Assembly (NCBI GenBank): GCA_964458565.1
Contig: CAYWJO010000013.1
Span: forward strand, 14,541-78,540
Length of the DNA stretch: 64,000 bases
Direction: 5' to 3'
Source: an uncultured archaeon
Lineage (GTDB): Archaea; Asgardarchaeota; Thorarchaeia; Thorarchaeales; Thorarchaeaceae
The notes under the pieces are model-generated. The model made no database searches. It had not been told where the DNA came from and saw only the letters and a program-made list of their open reading frames with translations. Both the position numbers and the translations under genes were made by a program. Of the stretch, positions 19,784 to 31,340 are shown in pieces (within the stretch, counting starts at the first letter, position 1; each line of letters begins with the position of its first letter).

Positions 19784-21508
19784 ATTAGACTTAGTAGAAC
19801 TAAACTTATACTTCTTGCTCTACTTCTATCGAGTCTGTTCGTTCTAAGCGATCTTCAGGTATCTGCTGTCGATACCGAATTGCCTGTTGTATCACGTCAA
19901 GATCTAGCATCGGTGACAAGGACATGGACGAACCAGACCTTGATGTATCCTGATCAATGGCATAATTCATCAGAAATTGATGAGGAGTTAGCTCTTTGGA
20001 ATGCAGCTGTTCCTGAATTAATTGATTGGTTTGTTATAGGTCAGAGCTTTCAAGGTAAGAATTTGACCTGTGTTAGGATTACGAATGAACAGATTACCGA
20101 ACAGAAGGCGAAGAGCTTTATCGTAGCAGAGCATCATGCAAGAGAACAGATTACTGTTGAGTTTGCATTGCGTTTCATTCTGTACATGGTTAACGGATAC
20201 GGAATAGATCCCCTGATTACAGAATATCTGGATACCATAGAGATTTTTGTGATTCCTGCACTTAATCCTGATTCTCTCAATCTTGTTGTGGATGGAGGAA
20301 ATCACTGGCTTAGACGTAATATGAGACCATACAATGCTGATGGTGACGATGAGACTGATGAGGATTCATGGGAGGATGTGGATGGTGATGGATACATATC
20401 ATCATTTGAATTATATGAGAAACCTGCAGATTTCATCAACCCAGTTGAATTTTGGTATGAAGGTATAGACAATGATGGTGATGGTTTGGTTAATGAGGAC
20501 TATGTTGGTCTTGTTGACTTAAATCGGAACTATCCTACAGGTTTTGGTGAAGGTGAGTCATCTGACAATCCTGATTCTGATGTTTACCATGGAGAATATG
20601 CATTTTCCGAACCCGAGACCCAGGCTCTCAGGGATTTTGTCGAACAACATCGCTTCGCCATGGCTTATTCACTCCACTCTGGTATTAATACAACATATTT
20701 ACCTACCAATCCCTATGGTTATTTTCCTGAAACAACTCTCTATTGGGATATCCTAGATGACTATGACGAGATTCTACCGCCTGGTTTCAATGAAGTGTAT
20801 GGCTATACAGCAACTAAACTTGCATCAGCAAACAGTGGCATGTGGGACGAGTGGATGTATTATGAACGTGGTTGTACAGCCCCTGTAACTTTTGAAGTAT
20901 ATCACAATGGGAGTGCTGACACTTTGGATACGTACACAGTTTTGGAGGAGAACGAAACACACATCCTCTACGAGTGGGAAGGTATCTATCCATATTTCGC
21001 TCCTGTAGAAAGCTATATCGAAAAACTATGGATACAACTCAGGCCTGCATTTGATTATCTTATAGTCAACACACCTCGACTTGAGATTGATTTTGTTGGC
21101 GCAGATTACGATGGTAGTACGTTCACAGGCAATCTCTCGGTTTCCTGTATTGGGCACAGATTAGATACTGTTGAGGGGATAGTTGTGCTCGATGCTGAAG
21201 GTACAGCATTGAAATCGTATGCAGTTATGGACCCTGATGAATCGATAACTAAGCGGGTATCAATGGATCTAGCACCTGGTGAGAGTGTAATTATTCGGAT
21301 TGGAAACAATTACACCGGATTTGCGGAGTACACAATCGAATCATCTGCAGAAACAAGTACTCAACCGACAACAAGTACTAGTAATATGACAACCTCAACT
21401 ACGCCTGAGACTCCCACCACTCTTACAATTGAGATGTTGGTGATAATAGCAGGTGCAGGAGTTGCTGTTGTAGTAGGCGCAATCATCATTTTGAAACGTC
21501 GAACTTAG
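19784..21508 (+). CDS. Secreted, C-terminally anchored M14 zinc carboxypeptidase (probable ATT start at 19784; ORF track gives 19880)
   Basis: HHARE, R.N, VDLNRNY, SEPET, SLHSG and FE motifs; DxDGDG insertions; Thr-rich linker, TM and KRR tail; in-frame signal peptide upstream of 19880. Confidence 0.88.
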   Translation: MRLSRTKLILLALLLSSLFVLSDLQVSAVDTELPVVSRQDLASVTRTWTNQTLMYPDQWHNSSEIDEELALWNAAVPELIDWFVIGQSFQGKNLTCVRITNEQITEQKAKSFIVAEHHAREQITVEFALRFILYMVNGYGIDPLITEYLDTIEIFVIPALNPDSLNLVVDGGNHWLRRNMRPYNADGDDETDEDSWEDVDGDGYISSFELYEKPADFINPVEFWYEGIDNDGDGLVNEDYVGLVDLNRNYPTGFGEGESSDNPDSDVYHGEYAFSEPETQALRDFVEQHRFAMAYSLHSGINTTYLPTNPYGYFPETTLYWDILDDYDEILPPGFNEVYGYTATKLASANSGMWDEWMYYERGCTAPVTFEVYHNGSADTLDTYTVLEENETHILYEWEGIYPYFAPVESYIEKLWIQLRPAFDYLIVNTPRLEIDFVGADYDGSTFTGNLSVSCIGHRLDTVEGIVVLDAEGTALKSYAVMDPDESITKRVSMDLAPGESVIIRIGNNYTGFAEYTIESSAETSTQPTTSTSNMTTSTTPETPTTLTIEMLVIIAGAGVAVVVGAIIILKRRT

Positions 21509-21523
21509 TCCGAACGAATGTGA

Positions 21524-21552
21524 GTGTGGGGTATCCCCCACACATGTTTTTT
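21524..21552 (+). terminator. Hairpin plus T-tract
   Basis: GTGTGGGG-tatc-CCCCACAC followed by ATGTTTTTT, just after the M14 stop. Confidence 0.6.
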
Positions 21553-21818
21553 CTAAGGCATGTGAAGCTCCGATTTAGAACCAAATAGACTCACATCAGT
21601 TATTCATAACGAACCAACCAAACCTATCGCGATTATAATGAGAAAAAGAAATGAAATCGTTCTCATCTTGACTTGGGCCCTCCGTTCATGATGTATCTAC
21701 CCTGAATCACTATAATCTTTTCTTCACCTTTTTACTTGTTTAGCGTAATTCTAAATCCTATTATAGGTAAAAACAGTGCATAAGATATTTCATATCCCAC
21801 GTTCAGGGGTGACAGGAA

Positions 21819-23552
21819 ATAAGAATCAGAAAGCACTTTCTCTTGATTATTTTGATACTGACGATACCTATGCCTTCAGTTTTGAAAATTACTTTTGAAA
21901 CCACCTTTGAAACTACTCAGGAGAATATCGTTCTATCTTCAAATCTGATTTACGAAGATCAATACCATGACTATGAGATGATGTCTGATGAGGTTGACAA
22001 CATCGCACAAAACGCGCCTGGAATAATTGAAGTGTTTTCAATTGGTCATAGTTATCTAGGAAAAGATCTTCTAGCTCTAAAGATAACTAATGAGTCTATC
22101 ACACGACAAAAAGCAAAAACATTGGTAGTTGCACATCATCATGGACGAGAGCAAATCACAATTGAAATGGCTCTCCGATTCATTCTCTATCTGGCGAATG
22201 GGTTTGGTCATGACGCACAGATAACCCATTATGTGAACTCATTGGAGATTTATGTCATTCCCACATTGAACCCTGATGCACTTGATAGAGTAATAAATGA
22301 GAATGATTTCTGGTTGAGGAAGAATCTACATCCATATGATAATGACTATGATGAGGAATCTGATGAGGATCCCATTGATGATGCAAACGGGGATGGATGG
22401 ATCTCAAGATATGATGTTTATGACCGCGTTGACGAAGATTCAGAAATCTATCTATATTCATATTATGAGGGAATTGACGACGACGGAGATGGAGAATTCA
22501 ACGAAGATGAAATCGGGTATGTTGACCTAAATCGAAATTATGATGCTGGTTGGGGTGGAAGTGGGTCCTCAGGAGACCCTACTGATCAAACGTACCGAGG
22601 GAGGCGCCCCTTTTCAGAACCCGAGACCCAAGCTATGCGTGATTTTGCTGAGCAGCATCGATTTGCGATGGCTTTCTCACTCCACTCAGGGATAAATGCA
22701 ACATATCTTCCATCTGATGATAACGGGTATGTTGAACCTGAGTTGTATGATGAGGTGTTTGGTGATTTTGCAGATATTCTTCCGAATTCATTCATCACGG
22801 GGGGAAGATATGAAGAGACGACAGAATCCGGTCCTATCATTGAAGCTAATCATTTTGGGAAATGGAGTGACTGGATGTATGTAGAACGAAACACTCCTGT
22901 GCCAGTGTGTTTCGAGATCTTTCACGATAGCCGGGTTGATGATGCTTCACGCTATACAACTATACTTGAGAACGATACTCACCTCATAAAGGAATGGCAT
23001 GACATCTATGGTTATTTCAACCCTCCTGCCAGTAAGATTGATTTACTCTGGATGATAATCCGGCCTGCTTTCATATACTTACTCGATATGATTCCTCAGC
23101 TCGATGTTGAGGTTGTGGTTTTACCTAATGCAAGTCCAGATTTGCATGATATCCGATTGGGAGTAAACATAGGTTGTGACGCTCCAAGAATCAGTTCGGT
23201 AGACCCCATATTCGTTAAAACTACAACTGGTGAGATTATTCATTCATGGTCTGCCCTAGATGCTGGAGCCCTATTACATGATAATGTGACGTTCTCACTT
23301 CCTTTCGATGCATCAATCTCACCGTTTACACTTCTGATTGGTAACAACTACACCGGATTCGATTCTATCATCTTAGAACGGTCCCCTCTGACCACTGTGA
23401 CATACCAAACTCCATCTAACACACAATCCAGCACAGAACCAATTCCATCGAGTGGAGTCTATCCTCTGGATTCATCTATAATTCTTATTGTGTCATCGAC
23501 TGGTTTCTTAGTAGTCGCCACTATTGCTATCATCTATATCCGAAGGAGATGA
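21819..23552 (+). CDS. Second M14 zinc carboxypeptidase, tandem paralogue (probable ATA start at 21819; ORF track gives 21843)
   Basis: HHGRE, LRKN, VDLNRNY, FSEPETQA, SLHSGIN and CFEI motifs; same insertions and C-terminal TM anchor as the first copy. Confidence 0.88.
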   Translation: MRIRKHFLLIILILTIPMPSVLKITFETTFETTQENIVLSSNLIYEDQYHDYEMMSDEVDNIAQNAPGIIEVFSIGHSYLGKDLLALKITNESITRQKAKTLVVAHHHGREQITIEMALRFILYLANGFGHDAQITHYVNSLEIYVIPTLNPDALDRVINENDFWLRKNLHPYDNDYDEESDEDPIDDANGDGWISRYDVYDRVDEDSEIYLYSYYEGIDDDGDGEFNEDEIGYVDLNRNYDAGWGGSGSSGDPTDQTYRGRRPFSEPETQAMRDFAEQHRFAMAFSLHSGINATYLPSDDNGYVEPELYDEVFGDFADILPNSFITGGRYEETTESGPIIEANHFGKWSDWMYVERNTPVPVCFEIFHDSRVDDASRYTTILENDTHLIKEWHDIYGYFNPPASKIDLLWMIIRPAFIYLLDMIPQLDVEVVVLPNASPDLHDIRLGVNIGCDAPRISSVDPIFVKTTTGEIIHSWSALDAGALLHDNVTFSLPFDASISPFTLLIGNNYTGFDSIILERSPLTTVTYQTPSNTQSSTEPIPSSGVYPLDSSIILIVSSTGFLVVATIAIIYIRRR

Positions 23553-27925: not shown

Positions 27926-28261
27926 CTATCTTTCATTTTTCATAGCACCAAACGCCAACCGTTTAGCTGCTTCTCTCATTTCAGATAATTTCTCGCCATA
28001 TTGAATGACATCACTATAGAGATCCATTTGCTCATGAATACTCTTCTCAACATAGGATGAAACTGCTTCGGAGCGGCTTCTAAAAACATCAAGTTCAACG
28101 AGGGTGTCGATTATTTTAACTATATCTGCACTAAGTCGTGTCATCACATGGACTTCTCGCTTTTTGATCTCAAACTCCTCTGATTGAAGTTCACCAAGAA
28201 TTCTATCTTTTAGTGTGATCTGTACCTGGTCGCCCTCTGATTCACTTTTTTTCGGTGGCAT
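27926..28261 (-). CDS. Ribbon-helix-helix DNA-binding protein
   Basis: VMTRL (strand), DIVKIIDTLV (helix A), RSRSEAVSSYV (helix B). Confidence 0.7.
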   Translation of the reverse strand: MPPKKSESEGDQVQITLKDRILGELQSEEFEIKKREVHVMTRLSADIVKIIDTLVELDVFRSRSEAVSSYVEKSIHEQMDLYSDVIQYGEKLSEMREAAKRLAFGAMKNER

Positions 28262-28430: not shown

Positions 28431-29381
28431 ATGGATAAGCTTGACAAAACCCTGCTCCTGAAGCTTCTCAGCGATTGTAGAGCATCCTACAGAGAACTCG
28501 CAAGAGAGTTAGGAGTTACCTGTCCCACAATTAAGAGAAGAGTGGATAAACTCATCAAGTCAGGTATTATAGAGAGCTTCACCATCGATATCTCTCAAGA
28601 AACTCTTGGTGTAAGTTGGGTGTATGCTGAGATTGAAACCGATCTATCTGAAGATCGAAACGCATTAATCCATGCTATTTGTGCGCATAAATTCACAAAT
28701 GAGATATTCGCTGTTGGATCCAAGAAATACATCGTATTTGGTGAAGTACCGCTTCTCGAAGGTATGTATGACTATGGTAAATTCTTGCGAAGTCTAGATG
28801 GAGTATGCAATGTGGAAATCACACCTGTTCGGCAATTACCAACAAGCCAGCTCTCAACTAATAGCAAATACAGCTCAAGAGGTGGGAAGGTATCTTTCAC
28901 CGAACAGCACTTACGTATCTTGAGACATCTGATGAACAATGCCCGAATTTCCATTTTGGACCTCTCTGAAAAGGTCGGATTCAAACCAAAACGAGTAAGA
29001 CGGGTTCTAAAACAACTTGAAGAGAGTGAGGGAGTTCATTTCACAATACGATTCAATCCATCTGTGGAGGATTGTATCAGTTTCATCCTAAAGATCAGCT
29101 TCAATGAGAATATGATTGCTCCAGGTGATATCACCTATTGGATGGAAGAGGAATTTCCTCAAGAGTATTGGATGTCTTTTCTCCTCTCAAGTGGACCTGA
29201 GATGGTTAACTACATGACTGCTGATAGTCTCTCAGGTGTTGAGAAGATAATCCGAAGAATGAAGGAAATACGATTCATAAGTGATGTTGAAACGATGTTA
29301 ATCTATCATCTTGAGAAGCCGTCCGAAGACGGATCTCTGACCACATCCGAGATTACACTCGAGCCACTCTCTGCAGTATGA
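28431..29381 (+). CDS. Lrp/AsnC family regulator with two tandem HTH-RAM units (Lrp-A)
   Basis: MD.LD..LL..L..DCR.SYRELA..LG....I..RV..L...G.I; second HTH IL..L..NAR.S...L. Confidence 0.85.
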   Translation: MDKLDKTLLLKLLSDCRASYRELARELGVTCPTIKRRVDKLIKSGIIESFTIDISQETLGVSWVYAEIETDLSEDRNALIHAICAHKFTNEIFAVGSKKYIVFGEVPLLEGMYDYGKFLRSLDGVCNVEITPVRQLPTSQLSTNSKYSSRGGKVSFTEQHLRILRHLMNNARISILDLSEKVGFKPKRVRRVLKQLEESEGVHFTIRFNPSVEDCISFILKISFNENMIAPGDITYWMEEEFPQEYWMSFLLSSGPEMVNYMTADSLSGVEKIIRRMKEIRFISDVETMLIYHLEKPSEDGSLTTSEITLEPLSAV

Positions 29382-29530
29382 TTTTTTCTAGCTAAAAGAA
29401 TTACGTATACAGCGAATCCCTTGATTCTAAGATAATTCCATACATTTCGATTAATGACAATATTTCTGCAAGGGGCCGTTTTGTAACGCGGCCGCTTCAT
29501 GTTTTTCCATTTGTTCATGTGCATTGGCCG

Positions 29531-29566
29531 ATTTGGAAGACTCCGTCTTAACGTGAGTTTATACTA
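29531..29566 (+). promoter_or_regulatory. Promoter element copy 1 (AAGAC-tcc-GTCTT palindrome plus TTTATACT box)
   Basis: 27/36 ungapped identity with 31157..31192; lies upstream of the repeat-peptide gene. Confidence 0.6.
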
Positions 29567-29643
29567 TTCTTGTAGTATGTATTGTTCAAGTCATTCTCCT
29601 GAATCATTGCGAGAATGTACCGATAAAAAACAGTGGTGAAGAA

Positions 29644-29946
29644 ATGAATAAGAAAAACTTGCGAAGAATTGCAGCGGGACTCATCCTCTTTGCTTTCAGT
29701 ATTGGTATGCTTACCAGTCTGGCTGGCACCTTCATGACAAGTGGAGTTGCAGAAGCTGGGGATGATACAGCTGATGATTGGCCAAATCAGGATCAGGTAG
29801 TTGATTACCGCATTGATGAGCCCGCACATCCTGACCTTGATGAGTATCAAGTCGTAGATTATCGAATTGATACACCATCAGATGAATCAGGTTTAGAAGG
29901 CGAGGCTATTCAGGTAGTCGAATACAGAATCGATACTCCCTGGTGA
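29644..29946 (+). CDS. Small secreted protein with three QVV[DE]YRID[ET]P repeats (candidate multi-core peptide precursor)
   Basis: GGTGA SD; basic plus hydrophobic N-terminus ending in AEA; three amino-acid-conserved repeats with synonymous codon divergence; downstream terminator. Confidence 0.85.
   Translation: MNKKNLRRIAAGLILFAFSIGMLTSLAGTFMTSGVAEAGDDTADDWPNQDQVVDYRIDEPAHPDLDEYQVVDYRIDTPSDESGLEGEAIQVVEYRIDTPW
29794..29940 (+). repeat. Three 30-nt coding repeats (29794, 29848, 29911)
   Basis: QVVDYRIDEP / QVVDYRIDTP / QVVEYRIDTP. Confidence 0.9.
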
Positions 29947-29970
29947 TTCTCCCTGAAACTCATCTATACG

Positions 29971-30018
29971 CCTAGCGTTGTTTTGGCAGCGCTAGGTGAT
30001 TTTTCCTTTTATTTTCTT
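29971..30018 (+). terminator. Hairpin plus T-tract
   Basis: CCTAGCGTTG / CAGCGCTAGG stem followed by TTTTTCCTTTTATTTT. Confidence 0.65.
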
Positions 30019-30049
30019 ATCCGCTGTGAAAAAGAATGAGATGATGCAT

Positions 30050-31057
30050 ATGGATTTGCTAGATAAAAAGATCATACGAAGACTGTTAGGAAATTCAAGA
30101 GAATCCTTTCACAGTATTGCGAGAGCGTTTGATGTCACCTGTCCAACAATAACCTCACGTGTTAATCGGTTGAGACAGATGGGTGTGATCCAGCGCTTCG
30201 TAACGGAATTATCTCATGAAACAATGGGTGTTGAGTGGATTCTGACTGAGATAAAGACCAATGGTGGGATCAGGAAATCCGATCTGTTGCAGGAGTTCCA
30301 ATCGAATGCTTGTATCGGGGATGTTTACATGTTAGGCAGAAGTCGTTATCTTGTACTTGCTGAAGTCTATCCTGAAGAAAAGAGTGGATATGTATCATGC
30401 CTCAAGAAGATAGATGATATCGAATATATTGAGGTAAGTGATATTCATCCAATATCTACTCAGATTAGTAATGGAAACTGTAAATTCACAACAAGAGGGC
30501 AAAAGATAGATTTATCCCCCATCGAGGTGGATCTTTTAAGATTCCTGGTAAGGAACTCACGCACTCCAATAAAAACGATAACTGATTGCACAGGGTACAG
30601 TACAAAGCTTGTACGCAGAGTTATGAGGAAATTCATTCAGTGCAATGGCATACATCTCACGTTGAAACTAAATCTCTCACAATGTGGTCAGATTAATTTC
30701 ATACTACGCACCCGTCTAAGGGATATGACCGTGCAAGCTGATGAAATTGCAGATTGGGTATCTTGTAGGTACCCTGAGGAACTCTGGTTCACACTCTTTG
30801 CTCCTCGTTCAGACAGTCTTTTACACTATATGACCGTAAGGCAGCCACAGTCTATCGAGCGAGTGATTAGAGAGGCCATCAAGCACCCTCGCATCGAAGA
30901 TGTTGAAGCTACCATAATCTATAGTATGTTCAAATCAGAAGGACGAACGCAACAGTTCCTCAAACATTGTATTGGCAACTTCTCAGAGGATGAATTAGAA
31001 TTACCGTTATCTTCTCTCCACGAACCGAGTCTGTTAGAACAAGAAATACATACCTGA
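30050..31057 (+). CDS. Lrp/AsnC family double-domain regulator (Lrp-B), paralogue of Lrp-A
   Basis: MDLLDKKI...L..NSR.S...IA...VTCPTI; shares VTCPTI, S.ET.GV.W...EI.T, K...RG.K and YMT with Lrp-A. Confidence 0.85.
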   Translation: MDLLDKKIIRRLLGNSRESFHSIARAFDVTCPTITSRVNRLRQMGVIQRFVTELSHETMGVEWILTEIKTNGGIRKSDLLQEFQSNACIGDVYMLGRSRYLVLAEVYPEEKSGYVSCLKKIDDIEYIEVSDIHPISTQISNGNCKFTTRGQKIDLSPIEVDLLRFLVRNSRTPIKTITDCTGYSTKLVRRVMRKFIQCNGIHLTLKLNLSQCGQINFILRTRLRDMTVQADEIADWVSCRYPEELWFTLFAPRSDSLLHYMTVRQPQSIERVIREAIKHPRIEDVEATIIYSMFKSEGRTQQFLKHCIGNFSEDELELPLSSLHEPSLLEQEIHT

Positions 31058-31156: not shown

Positions 31157-31192
31157 ATTTGTAAGAGACTCTCGTAACGCGTCTTTATACTA
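31157..31192 (+). promoter_or_regulatory. Promoter element copy 2
   Basis: ATTTGTAAGAGACTCTCGTAACGCGTCTTTATACTA, 27/36 identical to 29531..29566. Confidence 0.6.
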
Positions 31193-31209
31193 ATAATTTC
31201 TCTATAACT

Positions 31210-31340
31210 CCTACAAGTGTCACTCAAACCAAATTTGGATGTAATGGATTTCCTGAAAGACGGTCTTCCTTATCACCTCTTCATCTCCTCACGAGTGCAC
31301 TTCGGGTGGGGGGCTGGTCACTCCCCGCTCGTATTTTTTC
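31210..31340 (+). ncRNA. Candidate small RNA (boundaries approximate)
   Basis: Lies between the conserved TATA promoter and an 11-bp G-U-containing stem (31303-31331) plus T6. No credible ORF ends before the terminator. Contains ATCACCTC. Confidence 0.35.

What the first reader, a model, noticed from the sequence alone, without database searches (positions are those of the whole stretch)
29644..29946. Multi-core secreted peptide precursor under purifying selection
Seen: a signal-like N-terminus ending AEA, then QVVDYRIDEP, QVVDYRIDTP and QVVEYRIDTP-W separated by unrelated acidic spacers of 8 and 11 aa. Repeats 1 and 2 differ at six codons synonymously and at one codon non-synonymously, so selection acts on the peptide sequence. 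Known: signal + repeated core + acidic spacer is the layout of alpha-factor-type prepro-peptides and multi-core RiPP precursors. Alternative: beta-zipper binding motifs, or a protease bait/inhibitor with a central Arg. No dibasic cleavage sites or RiPP modification enzymes are visible.
Basis: partly seen in the sequence, partly recalled or inferred. Interest (0 to 1): 0.8.

Follow-up and report, generated by a model that had tools for sequence, protein, structure and literature searches.

The report
Exported three-motif peptide of Thorarchaeota
This is a real, conserved gene for a small exported protein carrying three copies of a ten-residue motif, always sitting beside a dedicated Lrp-type regulator in a few Asgard (Thorarchaeota) genomes, which makes it a credible but unproven candidate for peptide signalling in archaea.

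Summary
ORF 29644-29946 (+) encodes 100 aa: a basic N-terminus, a 23-residue hydrophobic helix, then an acidic tail with three copies of the motif Q-V-V-[DE]-Y-R-I-D-x-P, ending in Trp.

It is a real gene under purifying selection, with about 17 relatives. All are 74-108 aa and come from three Thorarchaeota genera. None is a domain of a larger protein.

New here: in all 8 loci with DNA, the gene lies directly upstream of an orthologue of the double-HTH Lrp/AsnC regulator at 29996-31057. It has its own conserved operator-plus-TATA promoter. That promoter occurs only twice in the 3.7-Mb genome; the second copy drives a small non-coding unit after the regulator.

The tail is predicted disordered, and no RiPP enzymes lie nearby. 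The C25 protease neighbour is not conserved.

Against a simple multi-core precursor: copy number is three in 14 of 16 members, core spacing is held at 16-18 residues, no conserved signal-peptidase or dibasic sites exist, and the hydrophobic segment looks like a membrane anchor.

Best reading (about 0.4): the exported peptide arm of a self-contained regulator/peptide/sRNA cassette, probably a signalling pro-peptide. Main rival (about 0.3): a membrane-tethered trivalent ligand.

Other first-stage notes of this scan flagged this same stretch, in this genome only.

The parts
27926..28261 (-). 111-aa ribbon-helix-helix-like gene that travels with the cassette
   Evidence: Orthologues lie within 5 kb of the peptide gene in L003, L014, L015 and L016. 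Only a weak NCBIfam match to part of AbmR.
28431..29381 (+). Lrp-A: 316-aa double winged-helix Lrp/AsnC-type regulator
   Evidence: Pfam HTH_24/HTH_AsnC at residues 1-48 and a second HTH at 156-205. An orthologue sits upstream of the peptide gene in L003 and L015, and nearby in L014 and L016.
29474..29493 (+). Distal conserved box with a TTTGTAA[AC]G loop in a short hairpin, about 150 nt before the ATG
   Evidence: Present at the same distance in all 8 loci, including L014 where the upstream gene is a transporter rather than Lrp-A.
29531..29568 (+). Promoter A: operator-like box TGGAAG-N8-9-TAACGYG followed by a TATA box
   Evidence: Conserved before the peptide gene in all 8 loci. It occurs only twice in the whole 3.7-Mb genome.
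29592..29617 (+). 5' UTR hairpin just upstream of the Shine-Dalgarno
   Evidence: RNAalifold on 8 loci gives 7 pairs, 3 of them with compensatory changes. Support is modest.
29644..29946 (+). The 100-aa gene. Signal-anchor is residues 9-31 (nt 29668-29736). Cores are at nt 29794-29823, 29848-29877 and 29911-29940. Terminal Trp is at 29941-29943.
29969..29998 (+). Hairpin plus T-run between the peptide gene and Lrp-B
   Evidence: A comparable hairpin plus T-rich tract is visible in L003.
29996..31057 (+). Lrp-B: double Lrp/AsnC-type regulator. The likely true start is at 30041-30050.
   Evidence: HTH_AsnC by Pfam. Residues 19-142 align to nearly full-length solved Lrp/AsnC proteins, i.e. HTH plus RAM domain. 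Orthologues of at least 40% identity occur only in the 7 genomes that have the peptide, always immediately downstream of it.
31157..31194 (+). Promoter B: second copy of the operator-plus-TATA element, ahead of a short non-coding unit (about 31215-31340)
   Evidence: The same duplication is seen after Lrp-B in L003. It was not detected in the g8 loci.

Best explanation
The gene encodes a small exported protein. A short basic N-terminus stays in the cytoplasm, one hydrophobic helix spans the membrane, and a roughly 65-residue acidic, disordered tail faces outward. The tail carries three evenly spaced copies of an amphipathic strand-type motif (V-[VL]-x-aromatic-[RK]-[IT]-[DN]-x-P).

The gene is the protein-coding target of a self-contained Thorarchaeota cassette: RHH gene, double-Lrp A, peptide, double-Lrp B and, in two genera, a small RNA under a second copy of the same promoter.

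Most likely it is the pro-form of an extracellular peptide cue. The Lrp regulators switch on the peptide gene (with read-through into Lrp-B) and the sRNA from the shared operator. The tail is exported, and the conserved motifs are the active units, freed by surface proteases.

Shown: the gene is real, its architecture, the disordered tail, strict linkage to Lrp-B, and the conserved, genome-unique promoter pair. Inferred: export topology, proteolytic release, any sensing of the peptide by the regulators, and the feedback loop.
For: - Real gene under purifying selection: pS 0.60-0.84 (saturated) against pN 0.17-0.49 between loci. Cores are conserved across about 17 members.
- The family stands alone. 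A HMMER search of 1.84 billion representatives finds only small proteins of 74-102 aa plus unrelated repeat proteins.
- The tail has no fold in two AlphaFold2 runs, with pLDDT below 50.
- Peptide and Lrp-B orthologue are adjacent in 8 of 8 loci. They co-occur in 7 genomes and are both absent from the other 79 genomes of the family.
- One genome (G022, locus L024) keeps the promoter and UTR hairpin but has lost both the peptide ORF and Lrp-B.
- The operator-plus-TATA element is conserved in all 8 loci and occurs only twice in the genome: before the peptide gene and before the sRNA-like unit.
- Oligopeptide-binding proteins are abundant: 23-34 matches to SBP_bac_5 per genome.
- From established knowledge: regulator-adjacent exported pro-peptide genes define RRNPP cassettes. 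The agr locus pairs an autoinduced peptide operon with a regulatory RNA under a like promoter.
Against: - Three copies in 14 of 16 members, and core spacing held to 16-18 residues, suggest the motifs act together in one chain.
- There are slight but consistent position-specific signatures.
- No conserved signal-peptidase, dibasic or other processing site exists, and the hydrophobic stretch has anchor length.
- No protease or importer is part of the conserved cassette.
- No Lrp/AsnC protein is known to bind an oligopeptide (my knowledge, not tested).
- Double-Lrp genes are a large paralogous family in these archaea. The distant paralogues sampled have no small exported ORF beside them, so adjacency may only mean local regulation.
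Confidence: 0.4

Rival explanations
1. A membrane-tethered trivalent ligand. The protein is not processed. Its disordered tail presents three equally spaced strand-forming motifs that dock by strand addition onto a repeated or oligomeric surface partner, such as a multi-domain surface protein, S-layer component or partner cell. The flanking Lrp regulators merely control when it is made.
For: Copy number is fixed at three with spacing of 16-18 residues. The core alternates hydrophobic and charged residues. The 23-30-residue hydrophobic helix lacks a conserved cleavage site. The third unit has its own signature and a terminal aromatic residue in most members. Double-Lrp paralogues elsewhere sit beside other genes, with no small exported ORF among those sampled.
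Against: No partner gene is conserved next to it. AlphaFold2 gives no strand structure. The closed promoter pair shared with an sRNA, and the joint loss of peptide and Lrp-B, fit a signalling loop better than a structural protein.
Confidence: 0.3
2. A substrate, bait or inhibitor of the neighbouring Arg/Lys-specific C25 (gingipain-like) protease, which would cut at the invariant basic residue in each core.
For: A basic residue (Arg, sometimes Lys) sits at the centre of every core. A 1241-aa C25 peptidase lies 1.5 kb downstream on the other strand.
Against: The C25 gene is not near the cassette in any other genome. Those genomes show only weak C25-like matches (about 24 bits) on other contigs. 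G000 has a second C25 + TPR + double-Lrp locus on contig C18 with no such peptide.
Confidence: 0.08
3. A multi-core RiPP precursor whose cores are enzymatically modified and excised.
For: A leader-like N-terminus plus repeated cores.
Against: No modification enzyme, dedicated protease or exporter lies within about 10 kb or in the conserved synteny. The aromatic position varies among Tyr, Phe, His and Trp, and the only Cys lies outside the cores and is not conserved. Copy number is fixed.
Confidence: 0.04
4. A chance ORF or mis-called frame with no protein product.
For: It is short, and a 100-aa ORF overlaps it on the opposite strand.
Against: Orthologues with the same architecture occur in three genera, with saturated synonymous and restrained non-synonymous change. 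The Shine-Dalgarno, promoter and terminator are all conserved.
Confidence: 0.01

Closest known systems
RRNPP pro-peptide cassettes of Firmicutes (Rap/Phr, NprR/NprX, PlcR/PapR, AimR/AimP)
   Same: A small exported ORF lies directly beside its cytoplasmic regulator gene. Some Phr precursors carry repeated cores. Re-import would use generic oligopeptide transporters, which are abundant here.
   Different: The regulators here are double Lrp/AsnC proteins, not TPR receptors. The peptide is longer, anchor-like, and always has three motifs. The organism is an archaeon. No sequence relationship exists.
Staphylococcal agr locus (AgrD pro-peptide operon at P2, RNAIII at P3)
   Same: A peptide-encoding unit and a regulatory-RNA unit are driven by two copies of one regulator-bound promoter, which here are the only two copies in the genome.
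   Different: The cassette has no AgrB-type processing enzyme, histidine kinase or response regulator. The resemblance is in layout only.
Yeast alpha-factor and other multi-core prepro-peptides
   Same: A hydrophobic N-terminus followed by repeated cores separated by acidic spacers.
   Different: No dibasic Kex2-type sites are present. Copy number does not vary among relatives, and spacing is constrained.
Disordered tandem strand-addition repeats of bacterial adhesins (FnBPA-type tandem beta-zipper)
   Same: A disordered segment with several short strand-forming motifs at regular spacing.
   Different: This protein is tiny, N-terminally anchored and archaeal. No binding partner is known.

Membership tests
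Multi-core RiPP precursor | Modification enzyme, protease or exporter encoded beside the precursor | tested here: not met
   Pfam on 18 neighbouring ORFs and ORF maps of 7 related loci show only regulators, an RHH gene and unrelated genes.
Multi-core RiPP precursor | Cores flanked by conserved recognition or cleavage sequences | tested here: inconclusive
   Flanks are not conserved in the g1/g7 clade. In g8 they are conserved as part of a 16-residue period.
Alpha-factor-type prepro-peptide | Dibasic processing site before each core | tested here: not met
   The tail of no member contains a KR or RR pair. The only conserved basic residue lies inside the core.
Alpha-factor-type prepro-peptide | Cleavable signal peptide | tested here: inconclusive
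   An A-x-A site exists in the window protein but is not conserved. The hydrophobic stretch is 23-30 residues and modelled as one helix. No signal-peptide predictor was available.
RRNPP peptide-regulator cassette | Small exported ORF adjacent to its regulator gene | tested here: met
   The peptide gene is immediately upstream of the Lrp-B orthologue in 8 of 8 loci.
RRNPP peptide-regulator cassette | Regulator binds the peptide through a TPR domain | tested here: not met
   Both flanking regulators are HTH_AsnC-type with RAM-like halves and no TPR. A TPR protein lies 6 kb away in this genome only.
RRNPP peptide-regulator cassette | Mature peptide is released and re-imported | not testable with these tools
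   Only the capacity is shown: 23-34 matches to SBP_bac_5 per genome.
agr-type autoinducing circuit | Same regulator-bound promoter drives the peptide operon and a regulatory RNA | tested here: met
   The two copies of the box are the only ones in the genome, one before the peptide gene and one before the non-coding unit. The same holds in L003. The RNA itself was not re-examined here.
agr-type autoinducing circuit | AgrB-type processing enzyme and a two-component sensor | tested here: not met
   None found in the cassette or its conserved neighbours.
Tandem strand-addition (beta-zipper) repeat array | Intrinsically disordered region with regularly spaced strand-forming motifs | tested here: met
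   pLDDT is below 50 across the tail in two models. The core alternates hydrophobic and charged residues, with spacing of 16-18 residues.
Tandem strand-addition (beta-zipper) repeat array | A partner with tandem modules that the repeats bind | not tested
   No candidate partner is conserved next to the gene.
Lrp/AsnC regulators (the flanking genes) | AsnC-type HTH followed by a RAM ligand-binding domain | tested here: met
   Pfam HTH_AsnC with E 1e-10 to 1e-19. Lrp-B residues 19-142 align to positions 1-126 of 150-aa solved Lrp/AsnC chains. Each protein has two such halves.

The most novel reading that the evidence does not exclude
This is the first peptide-based autoinducer circuit in Archaea, found in an Asgard lineage. 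An exported three-core pro-peptide is cut at the cell surface. The short peptides are re-imported by oligopeptide transporters and bound by the RAM domains of double-Lrp regulators. These then activate the only two copies of their operator in the genome: the peptide/Lrp-B unit (positive feedback) and a small-RNA effector.
Probability: 0.25. Interest if true: 0.9.

Novelty: new variant of a known kind. Interest (0 to 1): 0.6.

Why it matters
To my knowledge, peptide-mediated cell-cell signalling has not been demonstrated in archaea, and three literature searches here found nothing on it for Asgard archaea. These organisms live in close partnerships, and nothing is known about how they sense neighbours.

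This locus offers a compact, testable candidate: one small exported peptide, two ligand-type regulators, one operator sequence with exactly two genomic targets, and a small RNA. Even if the peptide proves to be a tethered surface ligand, it defines a new orphan family. It also gives a clean regulon for a much-expanded, unstudied class of double Lrp regulators.

Tried and rejected
- **Family searches.** Pfam and NCBIfam give no family for the peptide. ESM Atlas gives no usable look-alike (best 0.76).
- **Collection scans.** The metagenome contig scan found no relative. The genome-contig scan found only the Thorarchaeota MAG already seen.
- **False hits.** Weak phylum-level hits in three genomes (G059, G067, G185) match only the N-terminal hydrophobic part and are unrelated proteins. 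Longer HMM hits (P0010, P0012, P0014, P0015) are unrelated repeat proteins.
- **C25 as a partner.** Rejected as a conserved partner.
- **MBL-fold neighbour.** A membrane-anchored MBL-fold protein sits beside two g8 cassettes, but it occurs in 81 of 86 genomes of the family, so it is not specific.
- **Other double-Lrp paralogues.** A scan beside 23 of their loci found no analogous small exported ORFs.
- **Other export signals.** By inspection of the alignment, no class III (prepilin-like) signal, conserved twin-arginine motif or lipobox is present.
- **dN/dS.** A proper ratio could not be computed because synonymous sites are saturated in most pairs.

Full report
**1. The observation**

- Layout: a basic N-terminus, an uncharged stretch, then an acidic tail. 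The three cores are at residues 51-60, 69-78 and 90-99, with spacers of 8 and 11 residues and a final Trp.
- Codon counts are confirmed. Cores 1 and 2 differ at six codons synonymously and at one non-synonymously. The other pairs give 3/2 and 8/1.
- The repeat is far beyond chance: summed identity is 26 of 30, against at most 14 in 2000 shuffles of the tail.
- A GGTGA ribosome-binding site lies 4 nt before the ATG. A 13-bp hairpin with a T-run follows the stop.

**2. It is a real gene and a small, isolated family**

- A word-indexed search of 5.8 billion proteins found four relatives. An exhaustive HMMER profile search of 1.84 billion representatives added six more.
- Whole-genome searches of 400 genomes of the phylum found matches in five genomes of the same family besides the window's own. 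ORF scanning added one more.
- All true members are 74-108 residues. The longer hits are unrelated repeat proteins, so this is not a fragment of a larger protein.
- One locus lies in a named record, a Candidatus Thorarchaeota MAG.
- Between loci, synonymous sites are saturated (pS 0.60-0.84) while non-synonymous change is restrained (pN 0.17-0.49).

**3. Anatomy across the family**

- Every member starts with Met-[Asn/Lys]-Lys and further basic residues, followed by 23-30 uncharged residues with a conserved Gly-x-Phe near the outer end, and then an acidic tail.
- The common core is V-[VL]-x-aromatic-[RK]-[IT]-[DN]-x-P. It alternates hydrophobic and charged positions.
- Fourteen of 16 members have three cores. 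One has two, and one is degenerate.
- Core starts are 16-18 residues apart, 21 in two proteins.
- In the window's clade the spacers drift freely. In genus g8 they are conserved as part of an exact 16-residue period.
- Within one protein the cores are 74% identical. The same position between proteins gives 77% and different positions 72%. This is a small but consistent position effect: only 1 of 5000 order shuffles reaches it, and the sequences are related, so this is not a probability.
- Most members end in an aromatic residue right after the third core.
- AlphaFold2 with 5 and with 16 sequences gives one helix (residues 3-34) and no confident structure in the tail.
- No signal-peptidase-type site is conserved, and there is no twin-arginine motif, lipobox or prepilin-type signal. 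Export with the tail outside is inferred from the positive-inside rule. Whether the helix is cleaved off is open; I lean towards an anchor.

**4. Context: the new result**

- In all eight loci with DNA, the gene lies immediately upstream of an orthologue of the regulator at 29996-31057 (Lrp-B), on the same strand.
- Lrp-B and the upstream Lrp-A are each a tandem of two HTH-plus-RAM Lrp/AsnC units.
- Orthologues of Lrp-B (at least 40% identity) occur only in the seven genomes that have the peptide. The other 79 genomes of the family have only distant paralogues (33% or less). No comparable small exported ORF lies beside the 23 paralogue loci examined.
- One genome, G022 (locus L024), retains the promoter and leader but has lost both the peptide ORF and Lrp-B.
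- An RHH gene and an Lrp-A orthologue lie within 5 kb wherever the contig allows.

**5. Promoter**

- An operator-like box, TGGAAG-N8-9-TAACGYG, sits 3-4 nt before a TATA box and precedes the peptide gene in all eight loci.
- A second conserved box lies about 150 nt before the ATG. A leader hairpin has three compensatory pairs.
- In the 3.7-Mb genome the operator-plus-TATA element occurs exactly twice: before the peptide gene, and after Lrp-B ahead of a short non-coding unit. The same duplication exists in the g7 genome. It was not detected in g8.
- The lead for the duplication came from earlier notes of this scan. I checked it independently.

**6. What it is not**

- No RiPP enzyme, dedicated protease or transporter lies within about 10 kb or in the conserved synteny.
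- The C25 protease next door is not linked in any other cassette genome. This genome has a second C25 + TPR + double-Lrp locus on contig C18 without a peptide.
- An MBL-fold neighbour seen beside two g8 cassettes is nearly universal in the family.

**7. Mechanism**

The cassette is closed: two ligand-type regulators, one operator with two targets, one exported peptide and one small RNA. Joint retention and joint loss of peptide and Lrp-B argue that they work together.

By analogy with RRNPP cassettes and the two-promoter layout of agr (established knowledge, not tested here), I favour a signalling pro-peptide under regulator control (0.4).

The fixed count of three, the constrained spacing, the anchor-like helix and the lack of processing sites keep a tethered trivalent ligand close behind (0.3). 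Release, re-import and peptide sensing by RAM domains are all inferred. Oligopeptide-binding proteins are abundant, but that evidence is unspecific.

**8. Novelty**

Three literature searches found no description of this family or of peptide signalling in Asgard archaea. I rate it a new variant of the regulator-adjacent pro-peptide theme, with a 0.25 chance of being the first archaeal peptide autoinducer circuit.

Noticed in passing
window 29531-29568 and 31157-31194; L003 4304-4345 and 5985-6020: The operator-plus-TATA element is duplicated, and these are its only two copies in the 3.7-Mb genome. The two flanking regulators therefore appear to have a regulon of just the peptide unit and the non-coding unit.
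   Followed up: yes
window 29474-29493, and the equivalent site about 150 nt before the ATG in L003, L011, L013-L016 and L019: A second conserved box with a TTTGTAA[AC]G loop in a short hairpin. It is kept even where the upstream gene differs, so it belongs to the peptide gene's control region rather than to the Lrp-A terminator.
   Followed up: partly
window 29592-29617: A conserved hairpin in the 5' leader just before the ribosome-binding site, with 3 compensatory pairs among 8 loci. It is a possible translational control or sRNA target site.
   Followed up: partly
L024 (G022:C80) about 1930-2080: A decayed cassette. The Lrp-A-like gene, both promoter boxes and the leader hairpin are retained, but the peptide ORF and Lrp-B are missing and an unrelated gene follows.
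   Followed up: partly
G000 contig C18, 38838-46495: A second locus with a double-Lrp gene, a secreted 291-aa protein, a TPR protein and a 1216-aa C25 peptidase. It mirrors the C25/TPR part of the window but has no repeat peptide.
   Followed up: partly
Thorarchaeota genomes G005, G367, G371, G373 and others: Double HTH-RAM Lrp/AsnC genes form a large lineage-specific expansion of up to 8 matches per genome, often 2-3 in tandem. Several pairs sit next to the same two 160-180-aa genes.
   Followed up: no
L011 (G346:C195) 813-1752: A second copy of the cassette in one g8 genome. Its Lrp-B is shortened to 159 aa and the peptide's third motif is replaced by unrelated sequence, so it is probably a degenerating duplicate.
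   Followed up: no
window 19880-23552: Two tandem M14 zinc carboxypeptidase genes lie 6-10 kb upstream. They could trim exported peptides, but they are not part of the conserved cassette.
   Followed up: no
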